A DNA stretch of 64,000 nt from a virus (lineage: Duplodnaviria; Caudoviricetes): IMG/VR virus record IMGVR_UViG_3300036773_000046, positions 15,067-79,066 of that record, one strand, 5' to 3'. Positions within the stretch are counted from its first letter, which is position 1, and each line of letters opens with the position of its first letter. The translations under genes were made by a program, and so were the position numbers. Below the pieces are notes generated by a model. It ran no database searches. It was given only the letters and a program-made list of their open reading frames with translations, and was not told where the DNA came from. Positions 43,307 through 64,000 of this stretch are shown here, one piece after another.

Positions 43307-43597
43307 GTGGAGTTTGAAAGAGCAAGTACCACCGCAGTAGGCGCGTATAAGCAAAAGTGTGAAGCGTGTAGCGGTGAGTTGTATCAGCAGCCCATCGCGC
43401 GTGCAGTTATTAGCGAAACACACAAGCCTTGGATCCACGCATCTCTTAAGTGTGCATCAATCATGGGTGAACGCTACAGCTCACAACTGTGGAGTGACGC
43501 AACACGTAAGAGTGAGTGTGAAGAGGCTGCGCGAAAGGGTGCATCCATGCGTTACGTTGGTGGAGGCCGCGGTAAAGACTGGGTACACACGCTATGA
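43307..43597 (+). CDS. Hypothetical protein (lower GC)
   Basis: 96 aa with Cys pairs; overlaps the next start. Confidence 0.4.
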   Translation: MEFERASTTAVGAYKQKCEACSGELYQQPIARAVISETHKPWIHASLKCASIMGERYSSQLWSDATRKSECEEAARKGASMRYVGGGRGKDWVHTL

Positions 43598-49964: not shown

Positions 49965-51145
49965 CGACGGTTGGAGTGCTGGGACTCGGTAAGCTCGGGT
50001 TACCACTTGCGCTGACGTTCGCGGAGGCAGGACACAAGACGCTGGTGTGGGATGTGGATGAACTGCCGCGTGACGCCGTGCGACGTAGGCAGAGTCACAT
50101 CGACGAACCCGACGTGCAGGGTATGCTGGAGTCGTTGCGTCTGCAACTCGCGCCGCCGGGACTTATGTCGGAGATCGCCGAGGTGGTGTTCGTGATCGTG
50201 CCGACGCCCTCGCTGCCTAGCGGCGCGTTCTCCGACGAGCACGTTGAGACGGCGATCGACATGATGGCGTACAACCGGTCGTCGTTGGACGGGCCCATCA
50301 TCGCGTGCGTAAGTACCCTATCACCCGGCTCGTCGTTGTGGCTGTCGAAGATGTCACGTGACCGCGGCATGCCCTTCGTGTACACGCCTACCATGATCGC
50401 ACTTGGCAGCGTTGTTCACGATCTTCGCGAGGCAGAGATGCAGATCATCGGCCAGGGCGCGTTGCCCGAAGAGCAGCGTGCGGCGCGCGTCGTGGGACGC
50501 GTCATGAAGAGCGTCGCGCGTTCGACGCCGCAGGCTTACATGCGTTACAGCTCGGCAGAGATCACGAAGATCGCAAGCAACGCGTTCTCCACCATGAAGA
50601 TTACGTTTGCGAACATGCTTGGGCACATGGCCGACGCACATGGCGCGAACGTCAACGAGATCAGCTACGGGTTGGCGCTGCGCGGACACGTCGGCTCGAA
50701 GTTGATCACCGCGGGTGCGGGCTTTGGCGGCCCGTGCTTCCCGCGTGACACGCACGCGTTCGACGCGGCGGGTGGCATGATGGGTAAGACGGTCCATGAG
50801 CTCAACGACAGGCACGCGTACATGATTGCGAGCCGAGTGGTCAACGCCCACCAAGAGCCGCCGACGACCTTCAGCATTCTTGGGCGCGAGTACAAGGAAG
50901 GTTCGAACTACCGCATCGAGCCGTTCAGCGACAAGGTGTCGGCGGTGCTTGAAGACGGCTACGAGCTGAAGCCGGTGGACAGCCGGGAGGCAGACGTCGT
51001 GGTCATCGCGATGCCACTGCGCAACGTGAACCTGTGCGATAAGATACGCGAGGGGGCGACGGTGATCGACCTCTGGCGCACGCATCCCTACCTAGGAATG
51101 TGTCCCGTACGCTACATCCCGTTTGGAATTGGAGAGACCAGTTGA
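49961..51145 (+). CDS. UDP-glucose/GDP-mannose 6-dehydrogenase family
   Basis: GLGKLGLPLA, IVPTP, STLSPG, AEITKIASNAF...KITFAN, GFGGPCFPRD. Confidence 0.9.
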   Translation: MTTVGVLGLGKLGLPLALTFAEAGHKTLVWDVDELPRDAVRRRQSHIDEPDVQGMLESLRLQLAPPGLMSEIAEVVFVIVPTPSLPSGAFSDEHVETAIDMMAYNRSSLDGPIIACVSTLSPGSSLWLSKMSRDRGMPFVYTPTMIALGSVVHDLREAEMQIIGQGALPEEQRAARVVGRVMKSVARSTPQAYMRYSSAEITKIASNAFSTMKITFANMLGHMADAHGANVNEISYGLALRGHVGSKLITAGAGFGGPCFPRDTHAFDAAGGMMGKTVHELNDRHAYMIASRVVNAHQEPPTTFSILGREYKEGSNYRIEPFSDKVSAVLEDGYELKPVDSREADVVVIAMPLRNVNLCDKIREGATVIDLWRTHPYLGMCPVRYIPFGIGETS

Positions 51146-52122
51146 CTAGGAAGGCGCTCGTTACCGGAGCCGGTGGCTTCATTGGTGGTCACCTCGTGCA
51201 GAGTTTACTTCACGAGGGCATGGACGTCATGGCAGTTGATCGTAAGCCGCGTGAAAGGTGGTATCAGACGCCACACGACGTGCGTAGCTTCACCGACACG
51301 AGCGTGCGTGAGCTCGTACCGGCAAACCTATCGGGCATCGACGAGGTGTATCACCTAGCCGCCGACATGGGCGGCATTGGCTACATCACGCACAACCTCG
51401 TGTCGTGCAGCCGCAACGTCGTCGACACGATCAACTTGCTGGACTGCGTGCATCCCGACACGCTGGTCTTCTTCTCCTCGTCGGCGTGCGTGTACCCCGT
51501 ACACATGCAGGAGAAGGGCGGGAACGTGTCGCTGGCAGAGCACATGGTGTGGCCCTACGATCCCGAACCCGGCTACGGATTCGAGAAGCTCTACGGCGAG
51601 CAGCTCATGAAGTGGTACCACGAAGAGCGCGACGTGCAAACACGCGTCGCGCGTTATCACAACGTGTACGGCCCGCACGGATCATGGAACGACGGTCGTG
51701 AGAAGGCACCCGCCGCCATCTGCCGCAAGGTCGCAATCGCAAAGCTCACGGGTGAACACACGATCGACATCTGGGGAGACGGCGAGCAGACGCGTAGCTT
51801 CATGTACGTCGATGACTGCGTCGAGGGCACGAAGCTGATTACCCGTGACACCCGACCTGACGCGTATGAGCCAGTCAACCTCGGCACCGAAGACTGGGTG
51901 ACGATCAACGAGCTGGTGTCCATCGTCGAGCAGATCGCGGGCGTGCACCTGCGACGACGTTACGATCTTACCGCGCCGCAAGGCGTGCGCGGGCGTAACA
52001 GCGACAACACCTTGATCGCCGAACGACTTGGGTGGGAGCCCAAGCTCACCCTCGAGTACGGGCTAGAGAAGACGTACCACTGGGTGTACGACCAGGTAAA
52101 GGCTGCGGCCGAAGGGTCGTGA
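51142..52122 (+). CDS. GDP-mannose 3,5-epimerase-like NAD-dependent epimerase
   Basis: TGAGGFIG, HLAADMGGIGYI, SSSACVYP, YGFEKL, GREKAPAAICRK, GVRGRNSDN. Confidence 0.85.
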   Translation: MTRKALVTGAGGFIGGHLVQSLLHEGMDVMAVDRKPRERWYQTPHDVRSFTDTSVRELVPANLSGIDEVYHLAADMGGIGYITHNLVSCSRNVVDTINLLDCVHPDTLVFFSSSACVYPVHMQEKGGNVSLAEHMVWPYDPEPGYGFEKLYGEQLMKWYHEERDVQTRVARYHNVYGPHGSWNDGREKAPAAICRKVAIAKLTGEHTIDIWGDGEQTRSFMYVDDCVEGTKLITRDTRPDAYEPVNLGTEDWVTINELVSIVEQIAGVHLRRRYDLTAPQGVRGRNSDNTLIAERLGWEPKLTLEYGLEKTYHWVYDQVKAAAEGS

Positions 52123-52997
52123 CCAACGAACTCAACACCACGCTGCTTGCACGCCTTGGCTGGTACGTCGCCGAGCGGCAAGCGACGTGGCATCGCCGGC
52201 AGCTTGGGATCACTCCGTGGTCGCCCGATCCCGTGATGTCATCAAACCACTTCACCAACGTCTACCGTGAACTTGATCCCGGCACGATCTATGCCCAAGA
52301 GCAACTCTCACAGCTTGATGAACTGCGTGACCGTATGTGGTTCGCGGTCGCGTATCGATTGGTCAACCGCCGCTCCACCTTCGAAGAGTACCCGGGTGGG
52401 TTCGGATGCTCATACACCGACGAGTGGCTGGCGTACCTTGAAGATCGTTACCAACGCGGGCTGACCGTCAAGACCAATCGACACCTCACCCCACGTCGTG
52501 AGTGGTACGAGAAGGCGTTGCGAACGATACCCACATTTCTACCTCGCGACGCGTCGGCGGCGTTCAAGACGTTGCACGGCGTCACGGGAGTGGGCGTGTT
52601 CACGGGTTGGCAGATACACTGCGATCTTGTGCAGTTCGGCGACATCGACTACGACCCATCATTCGTCGTCGTAGGTGACGGCGCGAGCTACTCGATCAGC
52701 TGCCTCTACGGGCAGCGACGGTTCGCCGACTACTGGCACGACGGGCGTGCGGGCACGAACATCGGACGTAAGCGTGCGGTAGGTGGCCGGGTGCGATCTT
52801 ACGCACACCCGTGGTTCAAGGAGGTGCTGCTGTGGCTAGTGGATCAGCAAGTTCATTGGCTGCCGTCGTACTGGCAGCCGTGGGATGGGCGTGCGCTCGA
52901 CCCCAAGAACGTCGAGCACTCACTCTGTGAGTGGCTGCGTTACGAACGTCATCTCATCAAGGATGCGGATGCGACACTTGATATACGATCAAGCTAA
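52119..52997 (+). CDS. aGPT-Pplase / 5-hmdU DNA kinase helical-domain family protein (HhH-glycosylase fold)
   Basis: ERQ.TW.RR..G..PWSPDPVM...HFTNVYRELD.GT, GVG.FTGWQI.CDL, EHSLCEW.RY. Confidence 0.6.
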   Translation: MTNELNTTLLARLGWYVAERQATWHRRQLGITPWSPDPVMSSNHFTNVYRELDPGTIYAQEQLSQLDELRDRMWFAVAYRLVNRRSTFEEYPGGFGCSYTDEWLAYLEDRYQRGLTVKTNRHLTPRREWYEKALRTIPTFLPRDASAAFKTLHGVTGVGVFTGWQIHCDLVQFGDIDYDPSFVVVGDGASYSISCLYGQRRFADYWHDGRAGTNIGRKRAVGGRVRSYAHPWFKEVLLWLVDQQVHWLPSYWQPWDGRALDPKNVEHSLCEWLRYERHLIKDADATLDIRSS

Positions 52998-53015
52998 GAC
53001 AGATTGGATTTTGAA

Positions 53016-53462
53016 ATGAGCGACTTCAACGACGTGGGCGACTTTCATCGTAAGATGGGACTACGCACGTCATCGGTTAGTCGAGTGGCGATGCTGCCTG
53101 ACCTCGACGACGCCGACGTGGACGACATGCTTCAGTTCCGCGTCGACTTCATGGACGAAGAGCTCACCGAGTTCAAGGATGGGTGGGCGGAGCAAGATCA
53201 CGCGAAGATGGCCGACGCGCTGATCGACCTCGTGTACGTCGCGATGGGAACGGCACACCTGCTCAACTACCCGTGGGCGGCGTTGTGGAACGAGGTGCAG
53301 TATGCGAACATGCAGAAGGAGCGCGCCGACGGCGCGGAAGACGCACGTTCAACGCGTAAGCACATGCTGGACGTCGTGAAGCCCGAGGGCTGGCAGCCGC
53401 CTGACGTCGAGGGTGTACTCAAGTACCATCGTAAGATCGACGACGATAGCTACGCGCACTGA
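53016..53462 (+). CDS. MazG-like all-alpha NTP pyrophosphatase (dUTPase/dCTPase-like)
   Basis: DFHRKMG, EELTEF, DALIDLVYVAMG, EVQYANMQK, VVKPEGWQPPD. Confidence 0.85.
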   Translation: MSDFNDVGDFHRKMGLRTSSVSRVAMLPDLDDADVDDMLQFRVDFMDEELTEFKDGWAEQDHAKMADALIDLVYVAMGTAHLLNYPWAALWNEVQYANMQKERADGAEDARSTRKHMLDVVKPEGWQPPDVEGVLKYHRKIDDDSYAH

Positions 53463-53464
53463 TC

Positions 53465-54700
53465 ATGTATCGAGCGTGTGATGTCATGGGCTTCGCGGGT
53501 GGCTTCACCCTGGGCATGGTGCAGGCAGGGTTTGAGCTCGCCGGCAAGAGAGAGCTACCCGGCGGCTTCGGCGCGTCCAACTGCCTAGCCAACCGCGATC
53601 TTCTTGGCGACGAGTGGGAACTCGAAGTGGGTCCCGGCGAGACGTGGACACCCGTGCAGGCTGACGCCGTGTTCGGCAACCCGCCGTGCTCGGGCTTCTC
53701 GGTGATGACGGCGCAGGCGCACCGCGGAATCGACGCAAAGATCAACGCGTGCATGTGGCACTTCAGCAACTACGTCGCACGGGTGAAGCCGCAGATCTCG
53801 ATCATGGAGAGTGTGCGCATGGCGTACACGACTGGTCGCCCACTGATGCAGCAGCTGCGCGCGAACGTCGAGCTGCAGACGGGTCTTAAGTACAACCTGA
53901 TTCACGTGTATCAGAACGCACTCGAGCTCGGTGGTGCGGCGCATCGTCCGCGCTACTTCAGCGTCATGGCGCGCGTACCCTTCGGCGTCGAGTACCCAAA
54001 CGTGCGCACACCTGTTCTTCGTGACGTCATTGAAGATCTCGAAGGACTCGACCTGACGTGGGAGCCACAGCCGTACAGACGTCCGCCGACGTGGTGGAGC
54101 AAGCCATCACGGTCGGACACGGGCATCGTAGACGGACACATGGTGTCTCGATCACCCGTCGTGACGCGCGCACTCGATCTTCTCGAGGCGAACGGCGGCT
54201 GGCCGCAGGGCAAGGCGGTGGGTAAGGTTCTCGAGGCGTACTACAAAGAGCACGGCACCCTGCCGAACAGCTGGCTCTACCAGAAAGATCGACTGGTCGC
54301 GCGTGACTTCTTCATGGGCTTCACCACGATGGTACGGTGGCGTGAAGATCGCCCAGCACGAGTGATCACGGGCGCGGCGTTGCAGTCGGTGCTTCACCCG
54401 TGGCTTGATCGAACGATCACACACCGTGAGACCGCACGTATCATGGGCTTCCCGGACGACTGGAAGATCAAGCCCATCGCCGGTAACGGCACGGCACCCA
54501 CGTGGGGCAAGGGCATCACGGTGCAGTGTGGTAAGTGGATCGGCGACTGGACCCGGCGGTCCATCGACGGCGAGCCGGGATCGAACCAAGGCATGCGCAT
54601 CGGAGACCGCGAGTACTTCATCGAGGCGACGCCACGCGTATGGAAGGCTTCCGTACCCGAACCCGACGTTGATCTAGACCCACTGGTGATCGGTGGCTAG
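53465..54700 (+). CDS. C5-cytosine DNA methyltransferase family
   Basis: GFAGGF (motif I), GNPPCSGFS (IV), MESV (VI, normally ENV), HRPRYF (VIII), RTITHRETARIMGFPDDW, GKGI (IX-X). Confidence 0.8.
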   Translation: MYRACDVMGFAGGFTLGMVQAGFELAGKRELPGGFGASNCLANRDLLGDEWELEVGPGETWTPVQADAVFGNPPCSGFSVMTAQAHRGIDAKINACMWHFSNYVARVKPQISIMESVRMAYTTGRPLMQQLRANVELQTGLKYNLIHVYQNALELGGAAHRPRYFSVMARVPFGVEYPNVRTPVLRDVIEDLEGLDLTWEPQPYRRPPTWWSKPSRSDTGIVDGHMVSRSPVVTRALDLLEANGGWPQGKAVGKVLEAYYKEHGTLPNSWLYQKDRLVARDFFMGFTTMVRWREDRPARVITGAALQSVLHPWLDRTITHRETARIMGFPDDWKIKPIAGNGTAPTWGKGITVQCGKWIGDWTRRSIDGEPGSNQGMRIGDREYFIEATPRVWKASVPEPDVDLDPLVIGG

Positions 54701-55861: not shown

Positions 55862-56590
55862 ATGGCCAACGATCTTAAGCTGAAGTTGTGGTCCAGTGAT
55901 CCACGACTCAAGCGACACATCAACCACGACCCGCGTTCGCTGAACTACAAACTCGACGTGTCGAACTTGGCGCTCGTGGACGTCGAGTGGCCCATGCACA
56001 TCGCCCTGCGCGACCAGGGTCAAGTCGGCCAGTGTACGGCGGAGGCGGCCACCGAGGCGTTGGGCAGCGATCCCTTCTTCACCACTCTTGCCGGCGACGT
56101 CCAGTCACAGCTCGACACCGAAGAGTTCTCCCTGCAGTTCTACAGCAACGAGGAGACGCTCAACGGCGACGGTCCCTACCCACCCAATGACAACGGCAGC
56201 GACGGCCTTACGTCGGCGAAGGTCGCGCAGGCACGCAACTTGATTAGTGGGTACGAGCACACGTTCGCCGCCGAGGACGCGCTGAAGGGTCTACAGCTAC
56301 GACCCTTTAGCTGGGGCACGTTGTGGAAGACGGGTATGGACGACGTGGACGCGTCGACTGGTCAAGTCACGTACGCGGGGAACACCCGCGGCGGGCACGA
56401 GATGTGCGGCTACAAAGTGGACGTGTTGAACGAACACCTGTGGGTTCGCCAGTCGTGGGGCCCGTGGGGGTATCAGAACGGCGGAGTCTTTTGGATCAGC
56501 TTCACAGACTTCGAGAAGTCGTTGGCCGACCAGGGCGACGTCACGTTCTTCACGCCACTCAACCTTCCCGCGCCTACACCTTCAAGCTGA
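55862..56590 (+). CDS. Papain-like cysteine peptidase (C1 family)
   Basis: RDQGQVGQCTA, GGHEM, VRQSWGPWG. Confidence 0.8.
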   Translation: MANDLKLKLWSSDPRLKRHINHDPRSLNYKLDVSNLALVDVEWPMHIALRDQGQVGQCTAEAATEALGSDPFFTTLAGDVQSQLDTEEFSLQFYSNEETLNGDGPYPPNDNGSDGLTSAKVAQARNLISGYEHTFAAEDALKGLQLRPFSWGTLWKTGMDDVDASTGQVTYAGNTRGGHEMCGYKVDVLNEHLWVRQSWGPWGYQNGGVFWISFTDFEKSLADQGDVTFFTPLNLPAPTPSS

Positions 56591-56605
56591 AGGGAGGTGA
56601 CATTC

Positions 56606-56761
56606 ATGGGAGTGATCGCGGCGGTCTTCTTCCTCATCGCTCTGCTGGTGGGCAAGCCCGACACAGGCGGAAGTACGTTCTGGGTTATCCTAGGACTGAT
56701 CTTCCTGGCACTCGCCGTCGAGTTCGGTGGGTATGTGCGTGAGCGGTTCGTTCGCCGGTAA
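56606..56761 (+). CDS. Small two-TM membrane protein
   Basis: GGAGG RBS; MGVIAAVFFLIALLVG...FWVILGLIFLALAVEF; below the ORF-track cutoff. Confidence 0.6.
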   Translation: MGVIAAVFFLIALLVGKPDTGGSTFWVILGLIFLALAVEFGGYVRERFVRR

Positions 56762-56772
56762 GCGCACAAAGA

Positions 56773-56805
56773 TCGGCGCGCGACCCAAGTGCGGTCGCGC
56801 GCCGA
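56773..56805. terminator. 13-bp hairpin between convergent genes
   Basis: TCGGCGCGCGACC / GGTCGCGCGCCGA perfect stem. Confidence 0.7.
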
Positions 56806-56814
56806 CGTGTGTTA

Positions 56815-57132
56815 CTAGCTATCAGCCACCCAGGCCATGATTTGATCGTGCCCGGCGATCAATCGCGTGAGGGCGTCGTCGTGTGACAGCCCGTGCGCGT
56901 CTGTCCACACGTTGATCGTCTCGGCGACCATTTCGTCGAGGGTGTCGACGGTGGGTGTCATTTCCGAGTCGTCGTAGTCCAGCTCGTCGCCGGGCTCGGA
57001 GAGCATCCACCTGATCATCGCGGTGAGGGTGTGCGCCGCGTCGTTCCACTCGACGTTGCGCGTGTCTGCCCACGCGCTGATCCAATTGATCACGTGATGA
57101 TCGGCGTCGGGTACGGTGAGTGTTGCGTTCAT
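56815..57132 (-). CDS. Hypothetical protein with internal duplication (INWISAWAD / INVWTDAH)
   Basis: Strong RBS ggaaaggaaacgatc before ATG. Confidence 0.65.
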   Translation of the reverse strand: MNATLTVPDADHHVINWISAWADTRNVEWNDAAHTLTAMIRWMLSEPGDELDYDDSEMTPTVDTLDEMVAETINVWTDAHGLSHDDALTRLIAGHDQIMAWVADS

Positions 57133-58008
57133 GATCGTTTCCTTTCCTTGCTTTCCTGGACGCGACCAATCTTACCAGCGTTGACCGTGACGTGCAACGA
57201 GGCGCACGACGAGAAGATCGTTTATACGGAAATGAAAATGATGCGGCGACACGCCGTACGAAGATCAATAAACCGACTGTCGCATTTGTCGGGTTAGCCA
57301 GGTCACCCGAGAGACAAGATCTCTGGACTCCGAATACGTTCCAGCACGCAAGCTGGTCGCGCCCGCCAGCCTGCACGACGGGGCGGTCAGCCGCGATCGC
57401 TCTCGTCGATCTTCAAGCGGATTTCGGGTCACCCGTAGTTCACGAACGGCTGACGCCGTGGACGTACTAGCACGCGCGCTAGCTGGTCCGCCCTACGCCC
57501 ACGTCGGGGTCGTCGCGGGCAAATCGCACGCGACCCGCGCGTTTTGGCGGGCTACGTTGCGCGTGGCCAAAGGCGGCGTAGGGCGGCGTTGATCTCCGTC
57601 GCGCGTCGTTGGTCGCGCGACCCGCTGCACCCCGCAGAAAGAAGATCAACGAGGGTGTTATCGTTTCGTTATCGTCCTGAATCCCACTCTGCGGTGGCCG
57701 GCAATTTCTTGATCAAACCACACGGCCCAATCGCCCTAGACCCATCGTAGGACGGCGGGCCGTTTCGTCCCCCTAAAACGTTGGGCCGTAGCTGGCGATT
57801 GGCCGCCCCGTACGCGGCGACGACGGGTCACCTGCGCTAGCGTGATAGAACGTAGTCGGAAGAAGATCAAACCACGTTAGACGTGGACTGGTCGCCGCCC
57901 TGATTCTCCTTTTGATCTTGGTTGGGGGCAAAACGATCAGTTGTCTAGGTCCCTCGTTTTTCGCCCTGCGTCGCCGCGTAGATGGCTGGCGAGGGTACGC
58001 TACGCCTA

Positions 58009-58037
58009 TTTACAAGTGATGTCATCATTGCTAGGAT
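58009..58037 (+). promoter_or_regulatory. Sigma70/HrdB-type promoter upstream of the cassette array
   Basis: TTTACA-17 nt-TAGGAT with extended -10 TG. Confidence 0.65.
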
Positions 58038-58748
58038 GAACGTAGTTCATTCAAAACAAAACAGCGACCGGGACTCCGAAACCGTACGTACTCGATCAAC
58101 GCGCGAATCGCCACCCGTCCGATCTTGATGAATTCGATCAAGTGCTGGAACGTCCAACGATTTCTTGATCCAAGTGGAAATGGATCAAGATGGTAGCAAT
58201 CGAGAACTGGATCTTTGATCCTTGACGTCCACCCAACCGGTGATCATGAACGCATTTGATCTCTCCGAGAACCAGCCTGGTCGCTGAATGAATACGATCA
58301 AGAAACCACGTAGATCTTGCGCGGCTGCTTGACCCAAGATCCAGTCACTCGTCGTAGTCGTTCCCGCGATCACGATACGACGAACGACGACACGATCTTC
58401 GGCACCGGCCCTTCGACGCACGTCTTGATCAAATAACGGGTCAGCCCGCGACCTTGAACGCGGGTGGGTTGATCGACAGCCCGAAGAGCCTGAAACTTCA
58501 CCGTGCGGCTCCAAACGATCAAACGCCCTGGCGATCAGCTAGGGCGATCAACTAGAACAACTTCATAAGATCCAACAAGTTGCGTGGCGGCGCGTCTAAC
58601 GACGCGCCGACCGCGTTGCTTGCTTGATCCACAAGCAAGATCGAGGAAAGGGAGATCAACAAAATGCGTCACTACTGGTTCCACCTCTACACCATCACCA
58701 ACACCCTGCTCGTCGCCCTCTGCTACCTGCCGTAGCCAAGGAGAGAAC

Positions 58749-59024
58749 ATGATCCACTACGTCACCTCCGTTTCGATCCCTTGGGATCCAATGATCTTCG
58801 GCATCGCGCGCGACGACACGCCCGACGACCTGGGTGCGTTGATCCAAGAGCAATATCGCGATGCGTTGATCACCTGGGCCGAAGAAATGGGGCCCAACGT
58901 TTTGATCACCTGCGCGAACACCAGCTACGCGACGTGCGAACGATTCCACGAAGAGTTCGACGATCAAGCGATGACGCCCGACGACTGCTACGCGATCATC
59001 GCCGTAGCCGTCGCCGACGACTGA
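58749..59024 (+). CDS. Cassette gene, hypothetical
   Basis: RBS aaggagag; its TGA is the first 3 nt of the repeat at 59022. Confidence 0.7.
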   Translation: MIHYVTSVSIPWDPMIFGIARDDTPDDLGALIQEQYRDALITWAEEMGPNVLITCANTSYATCERFHEEFDDQAMTPDDCYAIIAVAVADD

Positions 59025-59100
59025 TCTCGTTGCGTTGCGATCAGCGTTCGCGCTGATCGCTTCGTTGCACGATCAAGTCGATCATGCAAGAGAGGAAATC

Positions 59101-59286
59101 ATGACCACCTGGCAACCCACCAACACATCGGCATCCAACGTTGACGCCGAGCTCGACGAGCTGCTCGACTCATTGGCGACCGTTCGCGTTCCCGCGCGTC
59201 GTCGCCGTACCGACGACGAAGCCGTCCGCGATCTTCGCGAGCACGGCTACGTCAACCACGTTCCCTCGCGCTGGACGCGCTGGTGA
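59101..59286 (+). CDS. Cassette gene, hypothetical
   Basis: RBS gagaggaa; stop lies 1 nt before the repeat at 59288. Confidence 0.65.
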   Translation: MTTWQPTNTSASNVDAELDELLDSLATVRVPARRRRTDDEAVRDLREHGYVNHVPSRWTRW

Positions 59287-59378
59287 CTGATCGCGTTGCG
59301 TTGCGACGACGTTCACACGTCGTCGCTTCGTTGCATGATCAGCCGATCGTGCTACACACCCCTACGAGGGAGAAGATC

Positions 59379-59741
59379 ATGTCCCACAAGATCGAGCTAG
59401 TCGACCGCACGCCCGCGTTCGTCGTCCCGGAAGACGTCGCACTCGAGCTCAAAGAGATCGCGTCGAAGCTGGACGCGAACCCACTGCAGGTCGCGCGCCT
59501 GACGTTCACCGACGCGAAAGAGATCACGTTGTTCGTCAAGCAAGCGAAGAGCTGGGCGGCCGCGAACGGCTACGTGTACGGCAAGCGGCGCAACCTGACC
59601 ACGTCCGACAAGGAGTTGACGTTCGTGCTGGTGCCAGCGGCCAAGGCCGAGGCGCGCAAGCAAGAGCTGGCCGCGAAGCGCGCGGAGCGCGCGGCGAAGG
59701 CAGCTAAGACGAACACGAGCAAGGGCAACAAGAAGAGCTGA
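59379..59741 (+). CDS. Cassette gene, hypothetical with Lys/Ala-rich tail
   Basis: gagggagaagatcATG; stop is the start of the repeat. Confidence 0.7.
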   Translation: MSHKIELVDRTPAFVVPEDVALELKEIASKLDANPLQVARLTFTDAKEITLFVKQAKSWAAANGYVYGKRRNLTTSDKELTFVLVPAAKAEARKQELAAKRAERAAKAAKTNTSKGNKKS

Positions 59742-59830
59742 TCGCGTTGCGTTCGACGGCGACCCAACGTCGCCGTCGTTCGTTGCATGATCAGACGATC
59801 AAGCAGCACACCGACGAAGGGGAAGAGATC

Positions 59831-60202
59831 ATGGGCAAGCACTCGATCATCGGCACGACGTTGGAGGTCGGGTACGACGACCTCAACGAAGAGATCGACG
59901 TCATACAGGTGGGTGCCGAGTCGTTTTACGGCGTGAAGCTGGACGTGCTGGAAGCCGACAGCTCTTCGGTGCGTTTCGGCTTGACTGGTCGCGAAGATTG
60001 CGTCATGGGCTTCCTCGTTGACTACTTCATCGGCGACGAAGATCTCGCCGTGCTGCACGTGTCGATTCACAAGCTCTTCGTCGTGAACCCAGCCGACTAC
60101 GACCCCGCGAACGCGCGACCGTACGACCCACGTCATGCCGCGCATTGCGCGCGTTGTGGCGCGCAGACTGACGAGCTTGGTCACTGCGTCAACGACTGCT
60201 GA
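59831..60202 (+). CDS. Cassette gene, hypothetical (C-terminal CxxC...HC)
   Basis: gaaggggaagagatcATG; stop is the start of the repeat. Confidence 0.7.
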   Translation: MGKHSIIGTTLEVGYDDLNEEIDVIQVGAESFYGVKLDVLEADSSSVRFGLTGREDCVMGFLVDYFIGDEDLAVLHVSIHKLFVVNPADYDPANARPYDPRHAAHCARCGAQTDELGHCVNDC

Positions 60203-60256
60203 TCGCGTTGCGTTGCGTAAGACATCGATCTTACGCTTCGTTGCACGATCACCTAG

Positions 60257-60322
60257 GCCAGCTGTGAATGAAACTTGGTAGCGCCCGAAGGGGTAAGGGG
60301 GGTTCGATTCCCCTCGCTGGCA
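60257..60322 (+). ncRNA. tRNA-like element with truncated anticodon arm
   Basis: GCCAGC/GCTGGC acceptor-like stem + A discriminator, canonical T-arm GGGGG-TTCGATT-CCCCT, D-loop-like TTGGTAG, only a 3-bp CCC-GAA-GGG mini-arm; 66 nt; no encoded CCA. Confidence 0.45.
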
Positions 60323-60362
60323 CTTGACACAACAAAGCACACAACCGAGAAGGGAAACGATC

Positions 60363-60685
60363 ATGGCAATGCTAGTGCACGCCGTTTGCGCCACGTGTGG
60401 TGGCAAGGTGCAACCCAAGAACAAGTCAGGCAAGGTGTACGTGCACTCTGGCCTGCACGCCGTCGGCGATCTTCGCAGTCGCGACGACGTCACGCGCGCC
60501 GAACCCGTTGATCACCTGATCACGGGAATCAAGATGGTCACCGACGAGGAGAGCTACTGATGAAGAGCACAGCATGCCTCGGCAAGCGCGTCAGCGCCGC
60601 GTTCGCCGCCCAGCATCCCACGTCCGTAATCTACGGCGGCGGTGGTCGCTGGTACCTGAAGCCCACGAGCAAGTTCAACCGCTGA
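60363..60685 (+). CDS. Two small cassette genes (60363-60560, 60560-60685)
   Basis: TGATG overlap; second stop is the start of the repeat at 60683. Confidence 0.6.
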
Positions 60686-60772
60686 TCGCGTTGCGTTGAG
60701 CAAGATTCTGATCTTGCTCTTCGTTGCTTGATCAGACGATCAAGTGCACGACGACGACGAAGGGAACAACCC

Positions 60773-60943
60773 ATGACACCTTCCCCCTGGCAGTGCCGAC
60801 GCTGCCTACACCCGTTCTACGAACACCGTGAAAGCAAAGAGTGGCAACTGCTGAACCCGCGGCGCAAGCGCGATCTTCACGGCTGCACACGCAAAGAGTG
60901 CGCGTGCGTCGCCGCCGACGCGTCGCACGCCACCACGCACTGA
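60773..60943 (+). CDS. Cassette gene, Cys/His-rich small protein
   Basis: CRRC.H...H, HGC...CAC; stop is the start of the repeat. Confidence 0.65.
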   Translation: MTPSPWQCRRCLHPFYEHRESKEWQLLNPRRKRDLHGCTRKECACVAADASHATTH

Positions 60944-61026
60944 TCGCGTTGCGTTGCGATGATCACATGATCATCGCTTCGTTGCTTGATCAGTCGATCA
61001 AGTTAGGAAATGAGAAGGAAGAGATC

Positions 61027-61634
61027 ATGACGCTGGAGCAGCTGCCCGTGGGCACGCGCGTTACCAACCGTGACGACGACGGCATCGTCGTGGCGCACAC
61101 GATCTTCCGTGACGCCGTGCGCATCAAGTGGGATGCGGGCTTCGAGATGCACACGCTGATCGCCGCACTCCACCCGATCATGAAGGGCTGATCGTCATGC
61201 ACCACGACAAGCACATCGTGATCATGACCACCGACTACGGCGACGGCACGCAAGACAGCGAGTCGTTCGGCCCGTTCGCCGACGTCACCGCCGCACGCGC
61301 GTTCATCGACAACATCGAGGGTGCCTTCGACGGCAACACGACGTGGTGGATCACCCGCCTGTCGAACCCTCGACCCGTCGTTGACGCGTTAGCGTTAGTC
61401 ACGCACTAGAGGGAAAAGATCATGACGCTGCAAGAGCTGATCGACATCGCGAACGAGAAGAACGTCACACCCGAGGAAGTTGAGATCTTCACCGAGGTCG
61501 ATGGGATGATGTCGTTTGCGTACGAACCCGACGTCGATGTTCGCACCGACGACCTCGGTCGCGGCGAGGGTGCCGTGACGCTGATCATCAGCGCCACCAA
61601 CGCCTACATCGTCCTGCCCGACGACGAAAGCTGA
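61027..61634 (+). CDS. Three small cassette genes (61027-61191, 61197-61409, 61422-61634)
   Basis: Purine-rich RBS upstream of 61027 and 61422, both with gatcATG starts; 61197 follows 5 nt after the previous stop; last stop is the start of the repeat. Confidence 0.65.
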
Positions 61635-61710
61635 TCGCGTTGCGTGATCATCACGAGAGATCGTGATGGTCGCGTTGCCTGATCAGATCCGACGGGCAAG
61701 AGAGAAAGGT

Positions 61711-62013
61711 ATGATCATGGGTGGTTACGCACAAGAGCTTGATCGTGTGCAGAAGCTGATCGATGACAAGATCATCGACGGCGCAACGGTCACCGTCGAG
61801 CTCGACGTGGCGTTCGGCGAGGTCGGCGGCTCACTCGACAAGGCGATCAGCGCGCTCACCGCTGACACCGCAGTGACGTCGCGCGTTCTCGTCGAGCACG
61901 GACCTGGCGGCGGTTGGCCCGTCGTCGAGTTCCACGGCACACCGGGTGATGTGCTGGTGCTGCTGCGCCGGTACTTCGTCAACGACGGCGACATGAACGA
62001 GTACTTCAGCTGA
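61711..62013 (+). CDS. Cassette gene, hypothetical
   Basis: VELDV...GPGGGWPVVEFHG motif; stop is the start of the repeat. Confidence 0.7.
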   Translation: MIMGGYAQELDRVQKLIDDKIIDGATVTVELDVAFGEVGGSLDKAISALTADTAVTSRVLVEHGPGGGWPVVEFHGTPGDVLVLLRRYFVNDGDMNEYFS

Positions 62014-62096
62014 TCGCGTTGCGTTGCCAACGGGCGTCACGCCCGTTGGCTTCGTTGCCCGATCACGGGCAGTCACTACGACCGAAGGGAAAGATC

Positions 62097-62789
62097 ATGC
62101 CTCAAAGTGTACAGCATCACGGGACGTTCGCGCAGGTGCGCGAAGGCGACTTCCTATCGACATTCGGCAACGACCCAATCACCGAGGTCGTTCGCAAGCC
62201 CGTGTGGTTGACGATCACGCGCGCGTCGGGCGAGGTGTTGCGTCGCCGCCGCACCGACCCCGTCACGTTCTACCGCGACGAACCCACCGAGGCCGAGCGC
62301 AACGACGAGACGCTGCGGTACGCGCAACGGCGAGCAGCATCGACGTTCGACGAGTTCGTGCAACGCGACTACGTGCAGAACTTGCACGAAGAGATCGACA
62401 AGCGTGCCGACTACCAGGAGATCTTCGACTGGTCAAACACCGCGTCGATGTTCAAGCGGCAGGCGTACCGCAAGCTCGGCATGGAGCTGATCTACATCGC
62501 GCAAAAGGTGCTGAAGATTGACGATCTTCGCACGGACGCCGAGTGCTTCGAGGCTCTTGCGGTGTGGTACGCGGAGGAAGTGCTTGGGAGTGGAAGCTAC
62601 AAGCAGCGCGTTTCCGACCCGCTGTCACGTTCTTCAGCGGTGTTGTCTTCGATCTTTGAAGATCTCGACCGCTGGGCGCGCGCTCAGCTGATCGAGCAGA
62701 TCAAGTGGATGGGCGAGCCGTTCACCGATCGCGCGAAGGAGATTCGCGCGAAGTTCGATGAAGAAGTCAAAAACAACACCCGACTCTGA
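62097..62789 (+). CDS. Cassette gene, hypothetical (230 aa)
   Basis: gaagggaaagatcATG; stop is the start of the repeat. Confidence 0.75.
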   Translation: MPQSVQHHGTFAQVREGDFLSTFGNDPITEVVRKPVWLTITRASGEVLRRRRTDPVTFYRDEPTEAERNDETLRYAQRRAASTFDEFVQRDYVQNLHEEIDKRADYQEIFDWSNTASMFKRQAYRKLGMELIYIAQKVLKIDDLRTDAECFEALAVWYAEEVLGSGSYKQRVSDPLSRSSAVLSSIFEDLDRWARAQLIEQIKWMGEPFTDRAKEIRAKFDEEVKNNTRL

Positions 62790-62870
62790 TCTCGTTGCGT
62801 CACCCACGGTCGTCGACCGTGGATGGCGTTGCACGATCAAGGTGGTCGTGAGGGAAAGGAAGTGGAGATC

Positions 62871-63252
62871 ATGAAGCCAGAGGCATTGATCGAGTACCTG
62901 GTTCGGCAACGCGACGAAGCGATCAACGTCGAGTTCTCGCGCTCGCTGCCCGATCACACGCGACGCAACGCGACCGAGCGCGCCGATCACCTCGAGCGTA
63001 GAATCATCGAGGCGCAGGCGCGCTACCGCGATCTCATCGAGCGGGGGTGCTGACATGAAGAGAGTCGTCAACGCGCTGATCAAGTTCTTCGCGTCTCCCG
63101 TCATCTACGTCGACCGACGCGAGGTCGCGGTGGAGGCGCACTACGAAGCCGTGGCGATGGACGCGCTCATCACGTCGTCGTTGCCCTACGTCGTCGTGGT
63201 CCAGATGATCGCGGACGAGGAACGTGACGCACTCAACGCACTCAACGACTGA
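62871..63252 (+). CDS. Two small cassette genes (62871-63053, 63055-63252)
   Basis: RBS + gatcATG; second stop is the start of the repeat. Confidence 0.65.
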
Positions 63253-63336
63253 TCTCGTTGCCTTGCGATCAAGCATCCCGCTTGATCGCCTGGCTGCGAC
63301 TGATCAGAGTGATCACGCAAATGAAGGAGGAAGATC

Positions 63337-63510
63337 ATGGGTTTCTACTATCGCAAGCGCGTACCCGTGGGCAAGCGCAAGCGCACGTGGATCAACGTCA
63401 GCAAGTCCGGACTCTCGGTGTCCCACCGTCGAGGCAATACCACGGTCAACACCCGTGGCCGCTTCTGGGTGAAGCTGGGCAAGGGCTTCGGCTATCGAGG
63501 GAAGATCTGA
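63337..63510 (+). CDS. DUF4236-like basic protein
   Basis: MGFYYRKRVPVG...INVSKSGLSVS; aaggaggaagatcATG. Confidence 0.65.
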   Translation: MGFYYRKRVPVGKRKRTWINVSKSGLSVSHRRGNTTVNTRGRFWVKLGKGFGYRGKI

Positions 63511-63785
63511 TGCGAACGCTACGCGACATGACCGAAGACGAGGAGTTCGACGCCGAGGAGGCGGAGATCGAGGGTCGCGCCATGGGCCTGCTTCGATGCT
63601 ACGTCTGCTACACGAAGCAAACCGGCAAGATCGACGAAGACTCACGTGCGGCCAGCGTGTTCCACGGCAAGGGTCCGCTGCGCGGCATCAAGCGTGAGGG
63701 ACTTACGCCGCCGCATCCCGACCCACGTTCGTTCGACGCCACGGCGACATACGAACTCGTCCCGTGCGGACACGTCATCATCTGA
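63510..63785 (+). CDS. Cassette gene, hypothetical (CxxC ... PCGH)
   Basis: TGATG overlap with the previous gene; stop is the start of the repeat at 63783. Confidence 0.65.
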   Translation: MRTLRDMTEDEEFDAEEAEIEGRAMGLLRCYVCYTKQTGKIDEDSRAASVFHGKGPLRGIKREGLTPPHPDPRSFDATATYELVPCGHVII

Positions 63786-63866
63786 TCTCGTTACGTTGCC
63801 ACCCGCCAGTCGGGTGGCTTCGTTGCACGATCAGCGTGCAGGTAGGCAAGAGAGGAAGTGGAAGCT

Positions 63867-64000
63867 ATGACCGAGAGTGCCGAAGATGCCAAGCGGCCGT
63901 ACGCCGAGCGCATCGCGAAGTTGCTCACGCGAGCGGAGGGCACCGACAACCAGCACGAGGCGGACCTCGCGAATGAGATGGCCGCACGTCTCATGGAGAA
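63867..64000 (+). CDS. DUF2786-like protein, partial
   Basis: ERIAKLLTRAEGTDNQHEA; runs off the right edge. Confidence 0.6.
   Translation, partial: MTESAEDAKRPYAERIAKLLTRAEGTDNQHEADLANEMAARLME

What the first reader, a model, noticed from the sequence alone, without database searches (positions are those of the whole stretch)
58569..64000. Integron-like gene-cassette array in a phage: conserved arms around a sequence-variable hairpin at cassette boundaries
Seen: 11 elements of 51-57 bp. The left arm is TGATC(G/T)CGTTGCGTT and the right arm is TTCGTTGC..GATCA; two copies have 14-nt arms (61632, 62787) and one has a divergent right arm (63250). The cores differ in sequence but each forms an 8-11 bp stem, e.g. 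gcgatcagcg/cgctgatcgc, cgacggcgac/gtcgccgtcg, gagcaagat/atcttgctc, gccaacgggcg/cgcccgttggc, gccacccg/cgggtggc. Folded, each element gives an outer TGATC/GATCA stem, a conserved mismatched segment with CGTTG facing CGTTG, and the inner stem, so structure is conserved while core sequence is not. In 10 of 11 copies the first TGA is the in-frame stop of the upstream gene; the other is 1 nt off. An RBS and start follow within about 25-40 nt, except after the 60200 copy, which is followed by the tRNA-like element. Units are 258-776 bp and hold 1-3 unrelated small genes. Known: integron attC sites are likewise structure-defined ssDNA recombination sites abutting cassette stop codons; T4-type PeSL elements and T7 early RNase III sites are alternative precedents. 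Inference: a cassette-shuffling system or a repeated RNA-processing signal that I cannot assign to a described actinophage element. No recombinase is in the window; the array continues past the right edge.
Basis: partly seen in the sequence, partly recalled or inferred. Interest (0 to 1): 0.95.

Follow-up and report, generated by a model that had tools for sequence, protein, structure and literature searches.

The report
Stop-codon hairpins between phage early genes
An uncultured GC-rich phage separates its small, probably early genes with at least 13 copies of a folded RNA signal that begins at the upstream stop codon. The signal most likely marks where one long message is cut and its pieces capped, as RNase III sites do in phage T7, and it is not an integron-like DNA cassette system.

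Summary
Eleven 51-57 nt elements lie on the + strand (0.59 arm matches expected by chance). There is also a degenerate copy in the leader at 58570-58629, and two more copies lie past the record end on an overlapping metagenome contig.

The elements are structured and behave as sense-strand RNA:
- Fold z-scores run from -4.9 to -8.1.
- The inner stem covaries strongly.
- The conserved "mismatched" segment is a two-fold symmetric GUUGC/GUUGC duplex (U.G, U.U, G.U) that pairs only in sense RNA.

Further features:
- The element's first triplet is the in-frame stop in 12 of 13 copies.
- The 3' arm can pair instead with the sequence just downstream, and this complementarity is copy-specific.
- No sigma70-like promoter or U-tract terminator lies inside the array. 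One conserved promoter lies about 560 nt upstream.
- The 79-kb record holds no tyrosine or serine recombinase, no HUH enzyme and no RNase III gene.

Two other metagenomic phage contigs carry the same element family around mostly or wholly different genes, and gene units are permuted between two of them.

Best reading: intercistronic RNA processing and stabilising signals of the T7 RNase III type. Modular shuffling is a possible by-product. Cleavage has not been shown. This scan has noted similar stop-codon-anchored hairpin arrays, with different sequences, in other uncultured phages.

The parts
58009..58037 (+). Sigma70-like promoter candidate (TTTACA-17-TAGGAT) for the whole array, followed by the conserved near-palindrome ATGAACGTAGTTCAT
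   Evidence: This is the only convincing promoter-like site in 56500-64000. It is conserved in position in relative L224 as TTTACA-17-TAAAAT, with the same downstream block. Its function is inferred.
58570..58629 (+). Degenerate leader copy of the element, upstream of the first gene and not preceded by a gene
   Evidence: CM score 21.7 bits, E 7.7e-4. MFE -40 kcal/mol, z -7.6. An orthologous copy with a different inner stem lies after the same AACAACTTCATAAG block in L224.
59021..59076 (+). Element E1. Its TGA at 59022-59024 is the stop of the 91-aa gene 58749-59024
   Evidence: z -5.3
59287..59342 (+). Element E2. The upstream gene's stop is at 59284-59286, one base before the element's TGA
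   Evidence: z -6.5
59738..59794 (+). Element E3. Its TGA is the stop of the 120-aa gene 59379-59741
   Evidence: z -7.2
60199..60252 (+). Element E4. Its TGA is the stop of the 123-aa gene. It is the only copy without the downstream alternative hairpin, and it is followed by the tRNA-like stretch
   Evidence: z -5.3
60257..60323 (+). tRNA-like minihelix: an acceptor-like stem plus a T-arm with a UUCGAUU loop. It is not a callable tRNA
   Evidence: ARAGORN finds nothing. Rfam gives only weak tRNA-like and tmRNA T-arm matches. The fold is (z -0.76).
60682..60735 (+). Element E5. Its TGA is the stop of the 41-aa gene
   Evidence: z -6.2
60940..60993 (+). Element E6. Its TGA is the stop of the 56-aa gene
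   Evidence: z -6.1
61631..61686 (+). Element E7, of the subtype in which the UU/UU loop is replaced by G-C and U.G pairs. Its TGA is the stop of a 70-aa gene
   Evidence: z -6.1
62010..62066 (+). Element E8. Its TGA is the stop of the 98-aa gene
   Evidence: z -7.2
62786..62840 (+). Element E9. Its TGA is the stop of the 230-aa gene 62097-62789
   Evidence: z -4.9
63249..63307 (+). Element E10. Its arm carries a compensatory G-C to C-G change. Its TGA is the stop of a 65-aa gene
   Evidence: z -8.1
63782..63834 (+). Element E11. Its arm G.U is changed to A-U. Its TGA is the stop of a 91-aa gene
   Evidence: z -6.6
58664..64000 (+). Array of about 18 small co-oriented genes, nearly all without known relatives. 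Within a unit the genes overlap or lie at most 13 nt apart. Every longer gap holds an element. The last gene (from 63867) is a DUF2786/DUF7168 protein cut by the record end
   Evidence: ORF and RBS listing. PHROGs scans give only weak or no hits. The 230-aa and 120-aa proteins have no or one homologue among 5.8 billion proteins. L220 shows the full 267-aa DUF2786 gene and two further elements at L220 8760-8820 and 9299-9364.

Best explanation
The elements are cis-acting RNA signals on one long sense transcript of a promoter-proximal array of small genes, probably early genes.

ANATOMY OF ONE UNIT
1. The upstream gene's UGA.
2. A 5' arm.
3. A variable inner hairpin (H1).
4. A 3' arm.
5. A short partner sequence.
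6. The ribosome-binding site of the next gene.

TWO ALTERNATIVE FOLDS
- Fold 1: the two arms pair into a helix equivalent to about 22-27 bp. Its conserved centre is a two-fold symmetric GUUGC/GUUGC duplex (G-C, U.G, U.U, G.U, C-G).
- Fold 2: the 3' arm pairs with the downstream partner to form a small hairpin (H2).

MOST LIKELY MECHANISM (INFERRED, NOT SHOWN)
- A dimeric double-strand-specific endoribonuclease, probably the host RNase III, cuts the long helix in or near the symmetric core.
- The upstream message keeps H1 as a 3' cap.
- The released 3' arm refolds into H2, which caps the 5' end of the downstream message just ahead of its ribosome-binding site.
- A ribosome terminating on the UGA would melt the 5' arm and force the H2 state. 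Cutting or downstream translation could therefore also be gated by translation.

POSSIBLE BY-PRODUCT
Because the same arms recur at many gene boundaries, they probably also act as short homologies for modular gene exchange.
For: SHOWN HERE
1. Structure beyond chance. Fold z-scores run from -4.9 to -8.1. Over 25 copies from three phages, 95.9% of cells are paired against 73.7% in shuffles. The covariation score is 0.555 against 0.128 (0 of 500 shuffles), and slid controls give 28-54%. That alignment was fitted to the model.
2. Sense-RNA signature. The core U.G / U.U / G.U is present in 27 of 27 copies. Arm changes are compensatory or go from wobble to Watson-Crick. Sense RNA folds better than antisense in all 11 copies. 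CM scores are 58-75 bits on + against 15-29 bits on -.
3. Stop-codon anchoring. The element's first triplet is the in-frame stop in 12 of 13 own copies and 6 of 8 in L224. One L224 copy has TAA in place of TGA, so the stop function is kept. Only 7 of 93 other genes end in TGATC.
4. Alternative hairpin H2. With the first 15 nt blocked, all 12 tested copies fold into H1 plus H2. Matched arm-partner pairs beat permuted pairs in 162 of 20000 (own), 11 of 20000 (L224) and 150 of 20000 (L230) permutations.
5. One operon. The array holds no convincing sigma70-like promoter and no hairpin with a U-tract on the + strand. The only internal promoter-like hit, at 59312, lies inside E2 and looks spurious. 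One promoter-like site at 58009-58037 is conserved in L224.
6. A leader copy before the first gene, conserved in L224. This fits trimming of a long 5' leader and cannot be a gene-end function.
7. Comparative context. Relatives with homologous DUF2786 arrays fill the same gaps with other expression signals. L233, L235 and L236 have a repeated TGTACA-17-TGnTACAGT-type promoter plus a conserved leader. L222 has a hairpin plus TTGAC-17-TACTGT.

FROM ESTABLISHED KNOWLEDGE
T7 early mRNA is cut by host RNase III at conserved hairpins with internal loops between genes. That leaves a 3' hairpin which stabilises the upstream message.
Against: - Cleavage, its position and the nuclease are therefore all inferred.
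- The phage encodes no RNase III, and the host is unknown.
- No Rfam family matches. There is no sequence likeness to T7 sites.
- A sequence-conserved core kept across three divergent phages is more than RNase III usually needs. It could point to a different, specific RNA-binding protein.
- Stable GC-rich hairpins directly after stop codons could also act as U-tract-less terminators. My recollection is that such terminators were reported for the early region of actinophage phiC31; this was not checked here.
- The H2 statistics rest on my own windowing of arms and partners. GAUC is over-represented 3.2-fold genome-wide, which inflates background pairing. The permutation test controls for this only in part.
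Confidence: 0.5

Rival explanations
1. Ribosome-gated translational coupling switch with no cleavage. With no ribosome on the upstream stop, the 5' arm pairs with the 3' arm or with the GAUC just before the next AUG. A terminating ribosome melts the 5' arm, H2 forms, and the next start site is opened or closed. Expression of each unit would then depend on translation of the previous one.
For: - The stop codon is the first triplet of the element in 12 of 13 copies.
- A ribosome on the stop would cover about the 13-nt conserved 5' arm (inference from the known ribosome footprint).
- H2 covaries.
- RBS followed by GATCATG occurs 11 times in the 5.4-kb array and 9 times in the other 73 kb.
- In E9 the minimum-energy fold pairs the 5' arm with the GGAGAUCA before the start codon.
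Against: - Neither the long hairpin nor H2 covers the ribosome-binding site in most copies, so there is no clear off state.
- The leader copy has no upstream gene.
- Only about half of the array genes have GAUC before the AUG.
- This reading is not exclusive of processing.
Confidence: 0.2
2. Factor-independent transcription terminators or attenuators without U-tracts. They would give a stepwise fall of transcription along the array, possibly relieved when a closely following ribosome blocks the 5' arm.
For: - Stable GC-rich hairpins of -26 to -37 kcal/mol sit directly after stop codons.
- From my own knowledge, not checked here: terminators lacking poly-U tails were reported in the early region of actinophage phiC31.
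- In relative L222 a plain hairpin precedes each repeated promoter.
Against: - No U-tract follows any copy, and the scan finds no terminator-like site on the + strand of the array.
- No convincing promoters restart transcription. Fourteen terminators in series would starve distal genes such as the conserved DUF2786 gene.
- The leader copy would stop transcription before any gene.
- Termination does not need the conserved symmetric wobble core or the covarying H2.
Confidence: 0.15
3. Integron-like or other site-specific recombination sites. The elements would fold in single-stranded DNA and be exchanged by a dedicated recombinase as gene cassettes.
For: - The structure is conserved while the core varies in sequence.
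- The elements abut cassette stop codons.
- The array has one upstream promoter.
- The family occurs around different genes in three phages, and units are permuted between this phage and L224.
Against: - The 79-kb record holds no Phage_integrase, Resolvase or Y1_Tnp homologue.
- The conserved boxes are direct repeats, not inverted core sites.
- The conserved pairs are wobbles that exist only in sense RNA. In the bottom DNA strand they become C.A, A.A and A.C.
- Three samples of this phage and three of the L224 phage show no rearrangement.
- The conserved neighbours DUF2786 and the 155-aa gene have an element between them in two phages and none in L222 and L225. The element therefore comes and goes without its 'cassette'.
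Confidence: 0.04
4. Double-stranded DNA binding sites for a phage regulator. Two directly repeated CGTTGC half-sites would act like the stoperators of cluster A mycobacteriophages or other intergenic operator repeats of actinophages.
For: - CGTTGC is invariant on both arms.
- The sites have one orientation relative to transcription and sit in short intergenic gaps.
- Many actinophage clusters carry intergenic repeats of unknown role (PMC7302621).
Against: - A duplex-DNA site gives no reason for the compensatory changes that keep the inner stem, the arm pairs and H2.
- The spacing between half-sites varies with the inner stem length.
Confidence: 0.05

Closest known systems
RNase III processing sites of the phage T7/T3 early mRNA (R0.3, R0.5, R1, R1.1, R1.3)
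   Same: - Repeated hairpins between the genes of one long early transcript made from promoters at the genome end.
- Two helical segments interrupted by a conserved imperfect region.
- The hairpin can stay on the upstream message as a 3' cap.
- No promoter or U-tract in the unit.
   Different: - There is no sequence relationship and a different host phylum.
- Here the element starts on the stop codon.
- It has a two-fold symmetric GUUGC/GUUGC wobble core.
- It carries a covarying alternative hairpin with the downstream sequence.
- Cleavage has not been shown.
PeSL (promoter-early stem-loop) cassettes of T4-type phages (Arbiol 2010, PMC2839356; Comeau 2014, PMC4122927)
   Same: - Short repeated regulatory motifs flank small genes of unknown function in variable regions.
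- Recombination between copies explains module shuffling.
- Here, units bounded by elements are permuted between two phages.
   Different: - PeSLs hold a strong sigma70-like promoter and a stem-loop that terminates transcription. These elements hold no promoter and no U-tract.
- Mini-circles have not been tested here.
Integron attC sites
   Same: - Defined by structure rather than sequence.
- Conserved arms around a variable imperfect palindrome.
- Lie at cassette 3' ends, often including the stop codon.
- Promoterless genes behind one promoter.
   Different: - No integrase is present.
- There are no inverted R''/R' core sites.
- Pairing depends on G.U wobbles in the sense strand.
- No rearrangement is seen among samples.
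Intergenic repeats of actinobacteriophages: cluster M CR3/CR4 with upstream stem-loops (PMC7953290), cluster K SAS/ESAS, cluster O and EG inverted repeats, and EC/EI motifs (PMC7302621)
   Same: - Repeated motifs in short gaps between small non-structural genes near one genome end.
- Conserved between phages whose genes differ there.
- Gene insertions come with their own repeat copy in cluster M.
   Different: - Those motifs are short sequence repeats, mostly start-associated and 14-30 bp upstream of the start.
- They have no reported covarying long hairpin anchored on the stop codon.
- Their functions are also unknown.
REP/BIME-type extragenic palindromes that stabilise upstream mRNA
   Same: Repeated imperfect palindromes lie after genes inside operons and can protect the upstream message from 3' exonucleases.
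   Different: - Those are chromosomal and highly conserved in sequence between copies.
- They are linked to RAYT transposases, and none is found here.

Membership tests
Integron (attC array) | An IntI-type tyrosine recombinase with attI next to the array | tested here: not met
   PF00589 gives no match at E<=1 in the 79,066-bp record, and the control rings in 14 of 14 genomes. There is also no Resolvase and no Y1_Tnp. About 2% of the genome is unsequenced.
Integron (attC array) | Inverted core sites R'' (RYYYAAC) and R' (GTTRRRY) at the two ends of each site | tested here: not met
   The conserved boxes are the same word, CGTTGC, on both arms, so they are direct repeats. GTTGCAY departs from GTTRRRY, and no RYYYAAC lies on the left arm.
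Integron (attC array) | The recombinogenic fold is in single-stranded DNA of the bottom strand | tested here: not met
   The conserved pairs are U.G and G.U in the top, sense strand in 27 of 27 copies. Antisense folds are weaker in all 11 copies, and CM scores are 58-75 against 15-29 bits.
Integron (attC array) | Cassette gain, loss or reordering at the sites between close relatives | tested here: inconclusive
   Three samples of this phage have identical order, as do three of the L224 phage. Units are permuted between the two phages, which share about 50% amino-acid identity. Elements follow most gene units, so coincidence with them is weak evidence.
T7-type RNase III processing site | A hairpin of about two helical turns with an internal imperfect region, in RNA | tested here: met
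   There are 19-22 pairs plus internal mismatches. MFE runs from -26.5 to -37.5 kcal/mol and z from -4.9 to -8.1. Covariation is shown.
T7-type RNase III processing site | Located between cistrons of one polycistronic transcript | tested here: met
   Every gap longer than 13 nt in the array holds one. No convincing internal promoter-like site or U-tract terminator was found, and one conserved promoter lies upstream. The transcript itself has not been observed.
T7-type RNase III processing site | Cleavage by RNase III at a defined position | not testable with these tools
The phage has no RNase III of its own.
PeSL cassette | A strong sigma70-like early promoter inside each cassette | tested here: not met
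   The promoter scan gives only one hit inside the array (59312, within E2), and it is unconvincing. Only 25-38 nt separate an element from the next start, and the RBS fills that space.
PeSL cassette | A stem-loop that terminates transcription | tested here: inconclusive
   A stable hairpin is present, but no U-tract follows any copy. Termination cannot be assayed here.
Intrinsic (rho-independent) terminator | A GC-rich hairpin followed by a U-tract | tested here: not met
   The scan reports no terminator-like site on the + strand of 58569-64000. The 3' flanks read GAUCA followed by mixed sequence.
tRNA (for the stretch at 60257-60323) | A cloverleaf with D, anticodon and T arms | tested here: not met
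   ARAGORN finds none. No Rfam tRNA hit appears even at E<=10. Only the acceptor-like stem and the T-arm fold.

The most novel reading that the evidence does not exclude
A new family of ribosome-sensing, two-state 'punctuation' RNAs. Each element is a portable gene-end module made of a stop codon, a 3' cap hairpin, a cleavage site and a 5' cap hairpin for the next gene. Its two-fold symmetric GUUGC/GUUGC wobble core would be read by a specific dimeric protein, from the phage or the host, rather than by generic RNase III. Because each module carries all the boundary signals a gene needs, any gene placed between two modules is expressed. The same RNA element would then also be the unit of gene exchange between phages.
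Probability: 0.2. Interest if true: 0.75.

Novelty: new variant of a known kind. Interest (0 to 1): 0.55.

Why it matters
Little is known about how phages of high-GC Gram-positive hosts organise expression of their many small early genes. This element gives a concrete, testable signal with three notable properties:
- a covarying RNA with a defined symmetric core;
- a built-in stop codon;
- a built-in refolding partner.

If cleavage is confirmed, it extends the T7 model of intercistronic processing to a distant phage group. It would also supply a compact insulator part for building operons in actinobacteria.

The comparison with relatives is of interest for phage genome evolution. Homologous arrays use promoter cassettes, terminator-promoter cassettes or these hairpins, so boundary signals are swapped more freely than the genes they separate. 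The result also warns against reading every structured repeat at gene ends as an attC-like recombination site.

Tried and rejected
SEARCHES THAT FOUND NO FURTHER COPIES
- Near-identity search of the region against 50,697 phage records: no match.
- Exact left-arm and arm-pair patterns in IMG/VR: only single chance hits. Stricter two-arm patterns in IMG/VR: none.
- First strict pattern in metagenome and genome collections: none.
- A looser pattern found L230, which is real with 6 copies. It also found five contigs sharing one weak 26-bit hit and one hit in an Ancrocorticia genome that does not fold well. I treat these last two as chance.
- The CM on 13 other relatives found through the DNA polymerase or DUF2786: no copies.

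OTHER DEAD ENDS
- Rfam gave nothing relevant.
- PHROGs on 17 array proteins gave only weak or unknown-function hits.
- Homologue searches for the 230-aa and 120-aa proteins found only the protein itself, plus one L224 homologue for the 120-aa protein.
- tblastx between contigs was too noisy to use because of its sum statistics. It was replaced by tblastn.

READINGS CONSIDERED AND REJECTED
- Stop-codon readthrough or a SECIS-like signal: distances from UGA to the next AUG, such as 79 and 92 nt, are not multiples of three.
- Promoters hidden in the 3' arm: the RBS would then fall in the spacer.
- A MITE-like transposon: there are no target duplications, and the inner sequences are unrelated between copies.
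- A CRISPR-like array: the units are coding.

Full report
WHERE THE FINDING LIES

The window is the right 64 kb of a 79,066-bp IMG/VR virus record that is linear and rated 98% complete by CheckV. The window's right edge is the end of that record. The genome is 61% G+C.

Genes identified:
- a T4-type large terminase, 44% identical to those of Streptomyces phages;
- a family A DNA polymerase, a D5-type primase and an SNF2 helicase;
- NDP-sugar enzymes and a C5 DNA methylase.

The record holds no integrase. It therefore looks like a lytic phage of a high-GC Gram-positive host with no cultured close relative.

Layout around the array:
- Genes run leftward up to about 44.8 kb and then rightward.
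- A 1.5-kb non-coding, GATC-rich stretch (window 57140-58660) precedes the array.
- The array of small rightward genes runs to the record end.

- The left-arm motif gives 11 hits on the + strand at the stated coordinates, with 0.59 expected by chance.
- A covariance model built from them finds nothing else in the whole record except a degenerate copy at 58570-58629.
- Each copy folds into the same long hairpin, with z-scores of -4.9 to -8.1.
- RNAalifold finds eight inner-stem pairs kept through changes on both sides.
- On 25 copies from three phages, 95.9% of cells are paired against 73.7% in shuffles and 28-54% in slid controls. The covariation score is 0.555 against 0.128. That alignment was fitted to the model, which favours the structure.

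The array does go on. Contig L220 (JGI sample 3300036829) is 99.96% identical over 8,095 bp and extends 1.9 kb further. It shows:
- the full 267-aa DUF2786/DUF7168 gene that the record cuts;
- two more elements;
- three more genes.

Logan contig L221 is 100% identical.

THE CONSERVED 'MISMATCHED' SEGMENT IS A SYMMETRIC WOBBLE DUPLEX IN SENSE RNA

I anchored all 27 copies on the conserved words. The core is G-C, U.G, U.U, G.U, C-G, that is 5'-GUUGC-3' paired with a second 5'-GUUGC-3'. The U.G, U.U and G.U positions are kept in 27 of 27, 27 of 27 and 22 of 27 copies. The other five copies have G-C or A-U at the last position.

Arm variation preserves pairing:
- The 'divergent' arm of the 63250 copy is a G-C to C-G swap.
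- The 63783 copy turns G.U into A-U.
- In a second subtype (61632, 62787, both L220 copies, most of L230) the UU/UU loop next to the core becomes G-C plus U.G.

In antisense RNA or bottom-strand DNA these wobbles become C.A, A.A and A.C. Accordingly, antisense folds are weaker in all 11 copies. The model scores 58-75 bits on the sense strand and 15-29 bits on the other.

This is the main reason to place the function on the transcript. A two-fold symmetric duplex is what a dimeric double-strand RNA-binding protein would read; that step is inference.

THE ELEMENT IS ANCHORED ON THE STOP CODON

In-frame stop at the element's first triplet:

| Phage | Copies where the first triplet is the in-frame stop | Notes |
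|---|---|---|
| This phage | 12 of 13 | The remaining gene stops one base earlier |
| L224 | 6 of 8 | One reads TAA inside CTAATC, so stop function is kept rather than sequence; one is the leader copy |
| L230 | 3-4 of 6 | Other stops lie 2-5 nt upstream |

Elsewhere in the genome TGA is the stop in 58 of 93 long ORFs, and TGATC follows the frame in only 7 of 93.

Within a unit, genes overlap or lie at most 13 nt apart. Every longer gap holds an element, then 25-38 nt that include a purine-rich ribosome-binding site.

A SECOND, MUTUALLY EXCLUSIVE HAIRPIN

The 3' arm (GUUGC-NN-GAUC) is complementary to the sequence just downstream.
- When the first 15 nt are blocked, as a ribosome on the UGA would block them, all 12 tested intergenic regions fold into the inner hairpin plus this second hairpin, H2.
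- The complementarity is copy-specific. Examples are CAC with GUG, CUU with AAG, CCC with GGG and UCUGC with GCAGG.
- Matched arm-partner pairs are more stable than permuted pairs in all three phages: 162, 11 and 150 of 20,000 permutations reach the matched mean.
- The one copy without H2 (60200) is followed by the tRNA-like minihelix.
- An RBS followed by GATCATG occurs 11 times in the 5.4-kb array and 9 times in the remaining 73 kb. The GAUC before many start codons may therefore join this pairing scheme; this was not tested further.

ONE TRANSCRIPT

- The consensus scan finds only one other sigma70-like site in 56500-64000, at 59312 inside E2, and it looks spurious. It finds no hairpin with a U-tract on the + strand of the array.
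- One promoter-like site lies at 58009-58037.
- The non-coding leader is collinear with that of relative L224. Conserved blocks include the promoter (TTTACA-17-TAAAAT in L224), a near-palindrome just after it, and the block AACAACTTCATAAG followed by the leader copy of the element.
- A copy that precedes the first gene cannot serve as a gene end or a cassette boundary. It fits trimming of a long 5' leader.

RELATIVES

Homologues of the DUF2786 protein led to contigs from related phages.

| Contig(s) | Relation | What fills the gaps |
|---|---|---|
| L224 | DUF2786 53% identical | 8 copies, with arms CTGATCACGTTGCGT...CGTTGC...TCAG |
| L230 | Found by pattern scan; phage with tail fibre, amidase, a 385-aa DUF2786 protein, DUF6011 and SNF2 | At least 6 copies with more divergent outer stems; no detectable homologue of any of our array proteins |
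| L222, L225, L233, L235, L236, L242-L244 and five IMG/VR contigs | DUF2786 relatives | No copy |
| L233, L235, L236 | As above | A repeated TGTACA-17-TGnTACAGT-type promoter with a conserved leader |
| L222 | As above | A hairpin followed by TTGAC-17-TACTGT |

Homologous arrays thus use interchangeable boundary signals. Ours is the promoterless version.

IS IT A CASSETTE SYSTEM?

Shared genes are ordered differently:
- This phage: [61-aa gene][120-aa gene] ... [57+91 aa][DUF2786][155 aa].
- L224: [120][61+50] ... [244][DUF2786][75+155][91].

The units are bounded by elements, so recombination at the repeated arms is plausible, as shown for T4-type PeSLs (PMC2839356). The evidence is weak for four reasons:
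- Elements follow about 60% of all gene ends, so coincidence is expected.
- One breakpoint, left of the 91-aa gene, is not at an element in our phage.
- The DUF2786 and 155-aa neighbours have an element between them in two phages and none in L222 or L225.
- Three samples of each phage show no rearrangement.

The defining integron features are absent. There is no tyrosine recombinase, serine recombinase or HUH enzyme. There are no inverted core sites. The conserved pairs depend on the sense strand.

MECHANISM

I commit to intercistronic processing and stabilisation of a long message that is probably early. I put confidence in an RNA-level cis function at about 0.85, and in the specific cut-and-cap mechanism at about 0.5. 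The steps are:
1. The long helix is cut in or near the symmetric core by a dimeric double-strand RNase, most simply the host RNase III. The phage has none of its own.
2. H1 remains as a 3' cap on the upstream message.
3. The freed 3' arm refolds into H2 as a 5' cap next to the next ribosome-binding site.

All three steps are inferred from anatomy and from the T7 precedent, which is established knowledge. None has been shown. A translation-gated switch and U-tract-less termination are the main rivals. The first may coexist with processing.

PRIOR KNOWLEDGE

- Rfam has no such family.
- Actinophage papers describe many intergenic repeats of unknown function: cluster M CR3/CR4 with stem-loops, K SAS/ESAS, and O, EG, EC and EI motifs. 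I found no description of this stop-anchored, covarying two-state hairpin.
- Earlier notes of this scan report similar stop-codon-anchored hairpin arrays, with different sequences, in other uncultured phages. They reached the same T7-like reading. These are unchecked AI notes and are not independent support.
- No look-alike of this element's sequence is indexed in the scan.

I rate the finding a new variant of a known kind. It is real and well defined, but without functional data.

Noticed in passing
whole record (G000); window 53465-54700: GATC is the most over-represented tetranucleotide: 885 observed against 279 expected, or 3.2-fold, and densest in the array and its leader. The phage encodes a C5 cytosine DNA methylase. 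TGAT and ATCA are also enriched. GGGG and CCCC are strongly avoided (0.13-0.15 of expectation).
   Followed up: partly
window 57140-58660: A 1.5-kb non-coding stretch upstream of the array is packed with TTGATC/GATCAA-type words. It is collinear in short conserved blocks with the leader of relative L224, including GTTATCGTTTCGTTATCGTCCT and the near-palindrome ATGAACGTAGTTCAT just after the promoter candidate. It may hold operators, an origin or a genome end.
   Followed up: partly
window 60257-60323: A tRNA-like minihelix (acceptor-like stem plus a T-arm with a UUCGAUU loop) sits after the only element that lacks the downstream alternative hairpin. ARAGORN and Rfam do not call it. It could be a decayed tRNA or an RNase P/Z-type processing signal.
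   Followed up: partly
L233, L235, L236 (intergenic gaps); L222 5388-11467: Related phages fill the gaps of their small-gene arrays with other repeats. L233, L235 and L236 have CCTGTACA-N17-TGTGATACAGT followed by the leader ACAGCGACGAAGGGA (about 15, 6 and 4 copies). L222 has CCCCGCCGGGG followed by TTGAC-17-GGCTACTGT (4 copies). These look like phage-specific promoter cassettes and terminator-promoter cassettes.
   Followed up: partly
window 43594-45375: A 593-aa AAA_24-type ATPase carries Hint and intein-splicing domain matches, which suggests an intein inside a replication or recombination protein.
   Followed up: no
window 48903-53462: A block of NDP-sugar enzymes (UDP-glucose/GDP-mannose dehydrogenase, an NAD-dependent epimerase/dehydratase, a weak STELLO-like hit) and a PRA-PH/MazG-like pyrophosphohydrolase lies just before the C5 methylase. 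The PRA-PH, methylase and epimerase trio is syntenic in L222. Earlier scan notes read this as a DNA hypermodification pathway.
   Followed up: no
window 63867-64000 and L220 7962-9304: A DUF2786/DUF7168 protein followed by a 155-aa protein with an HExxH-like motif (VHEMAH) is the one gene pair conserved across all related arrays (L222, L224, L225, and in part L230), whatever boundary signal they use.
   Followed up: partly
window 58664-58735: A possible 23-codon hydrophobic mini-ORF with an RBS lies between the leader copy of the element and the first 91-aa gene.
   Followed up: no
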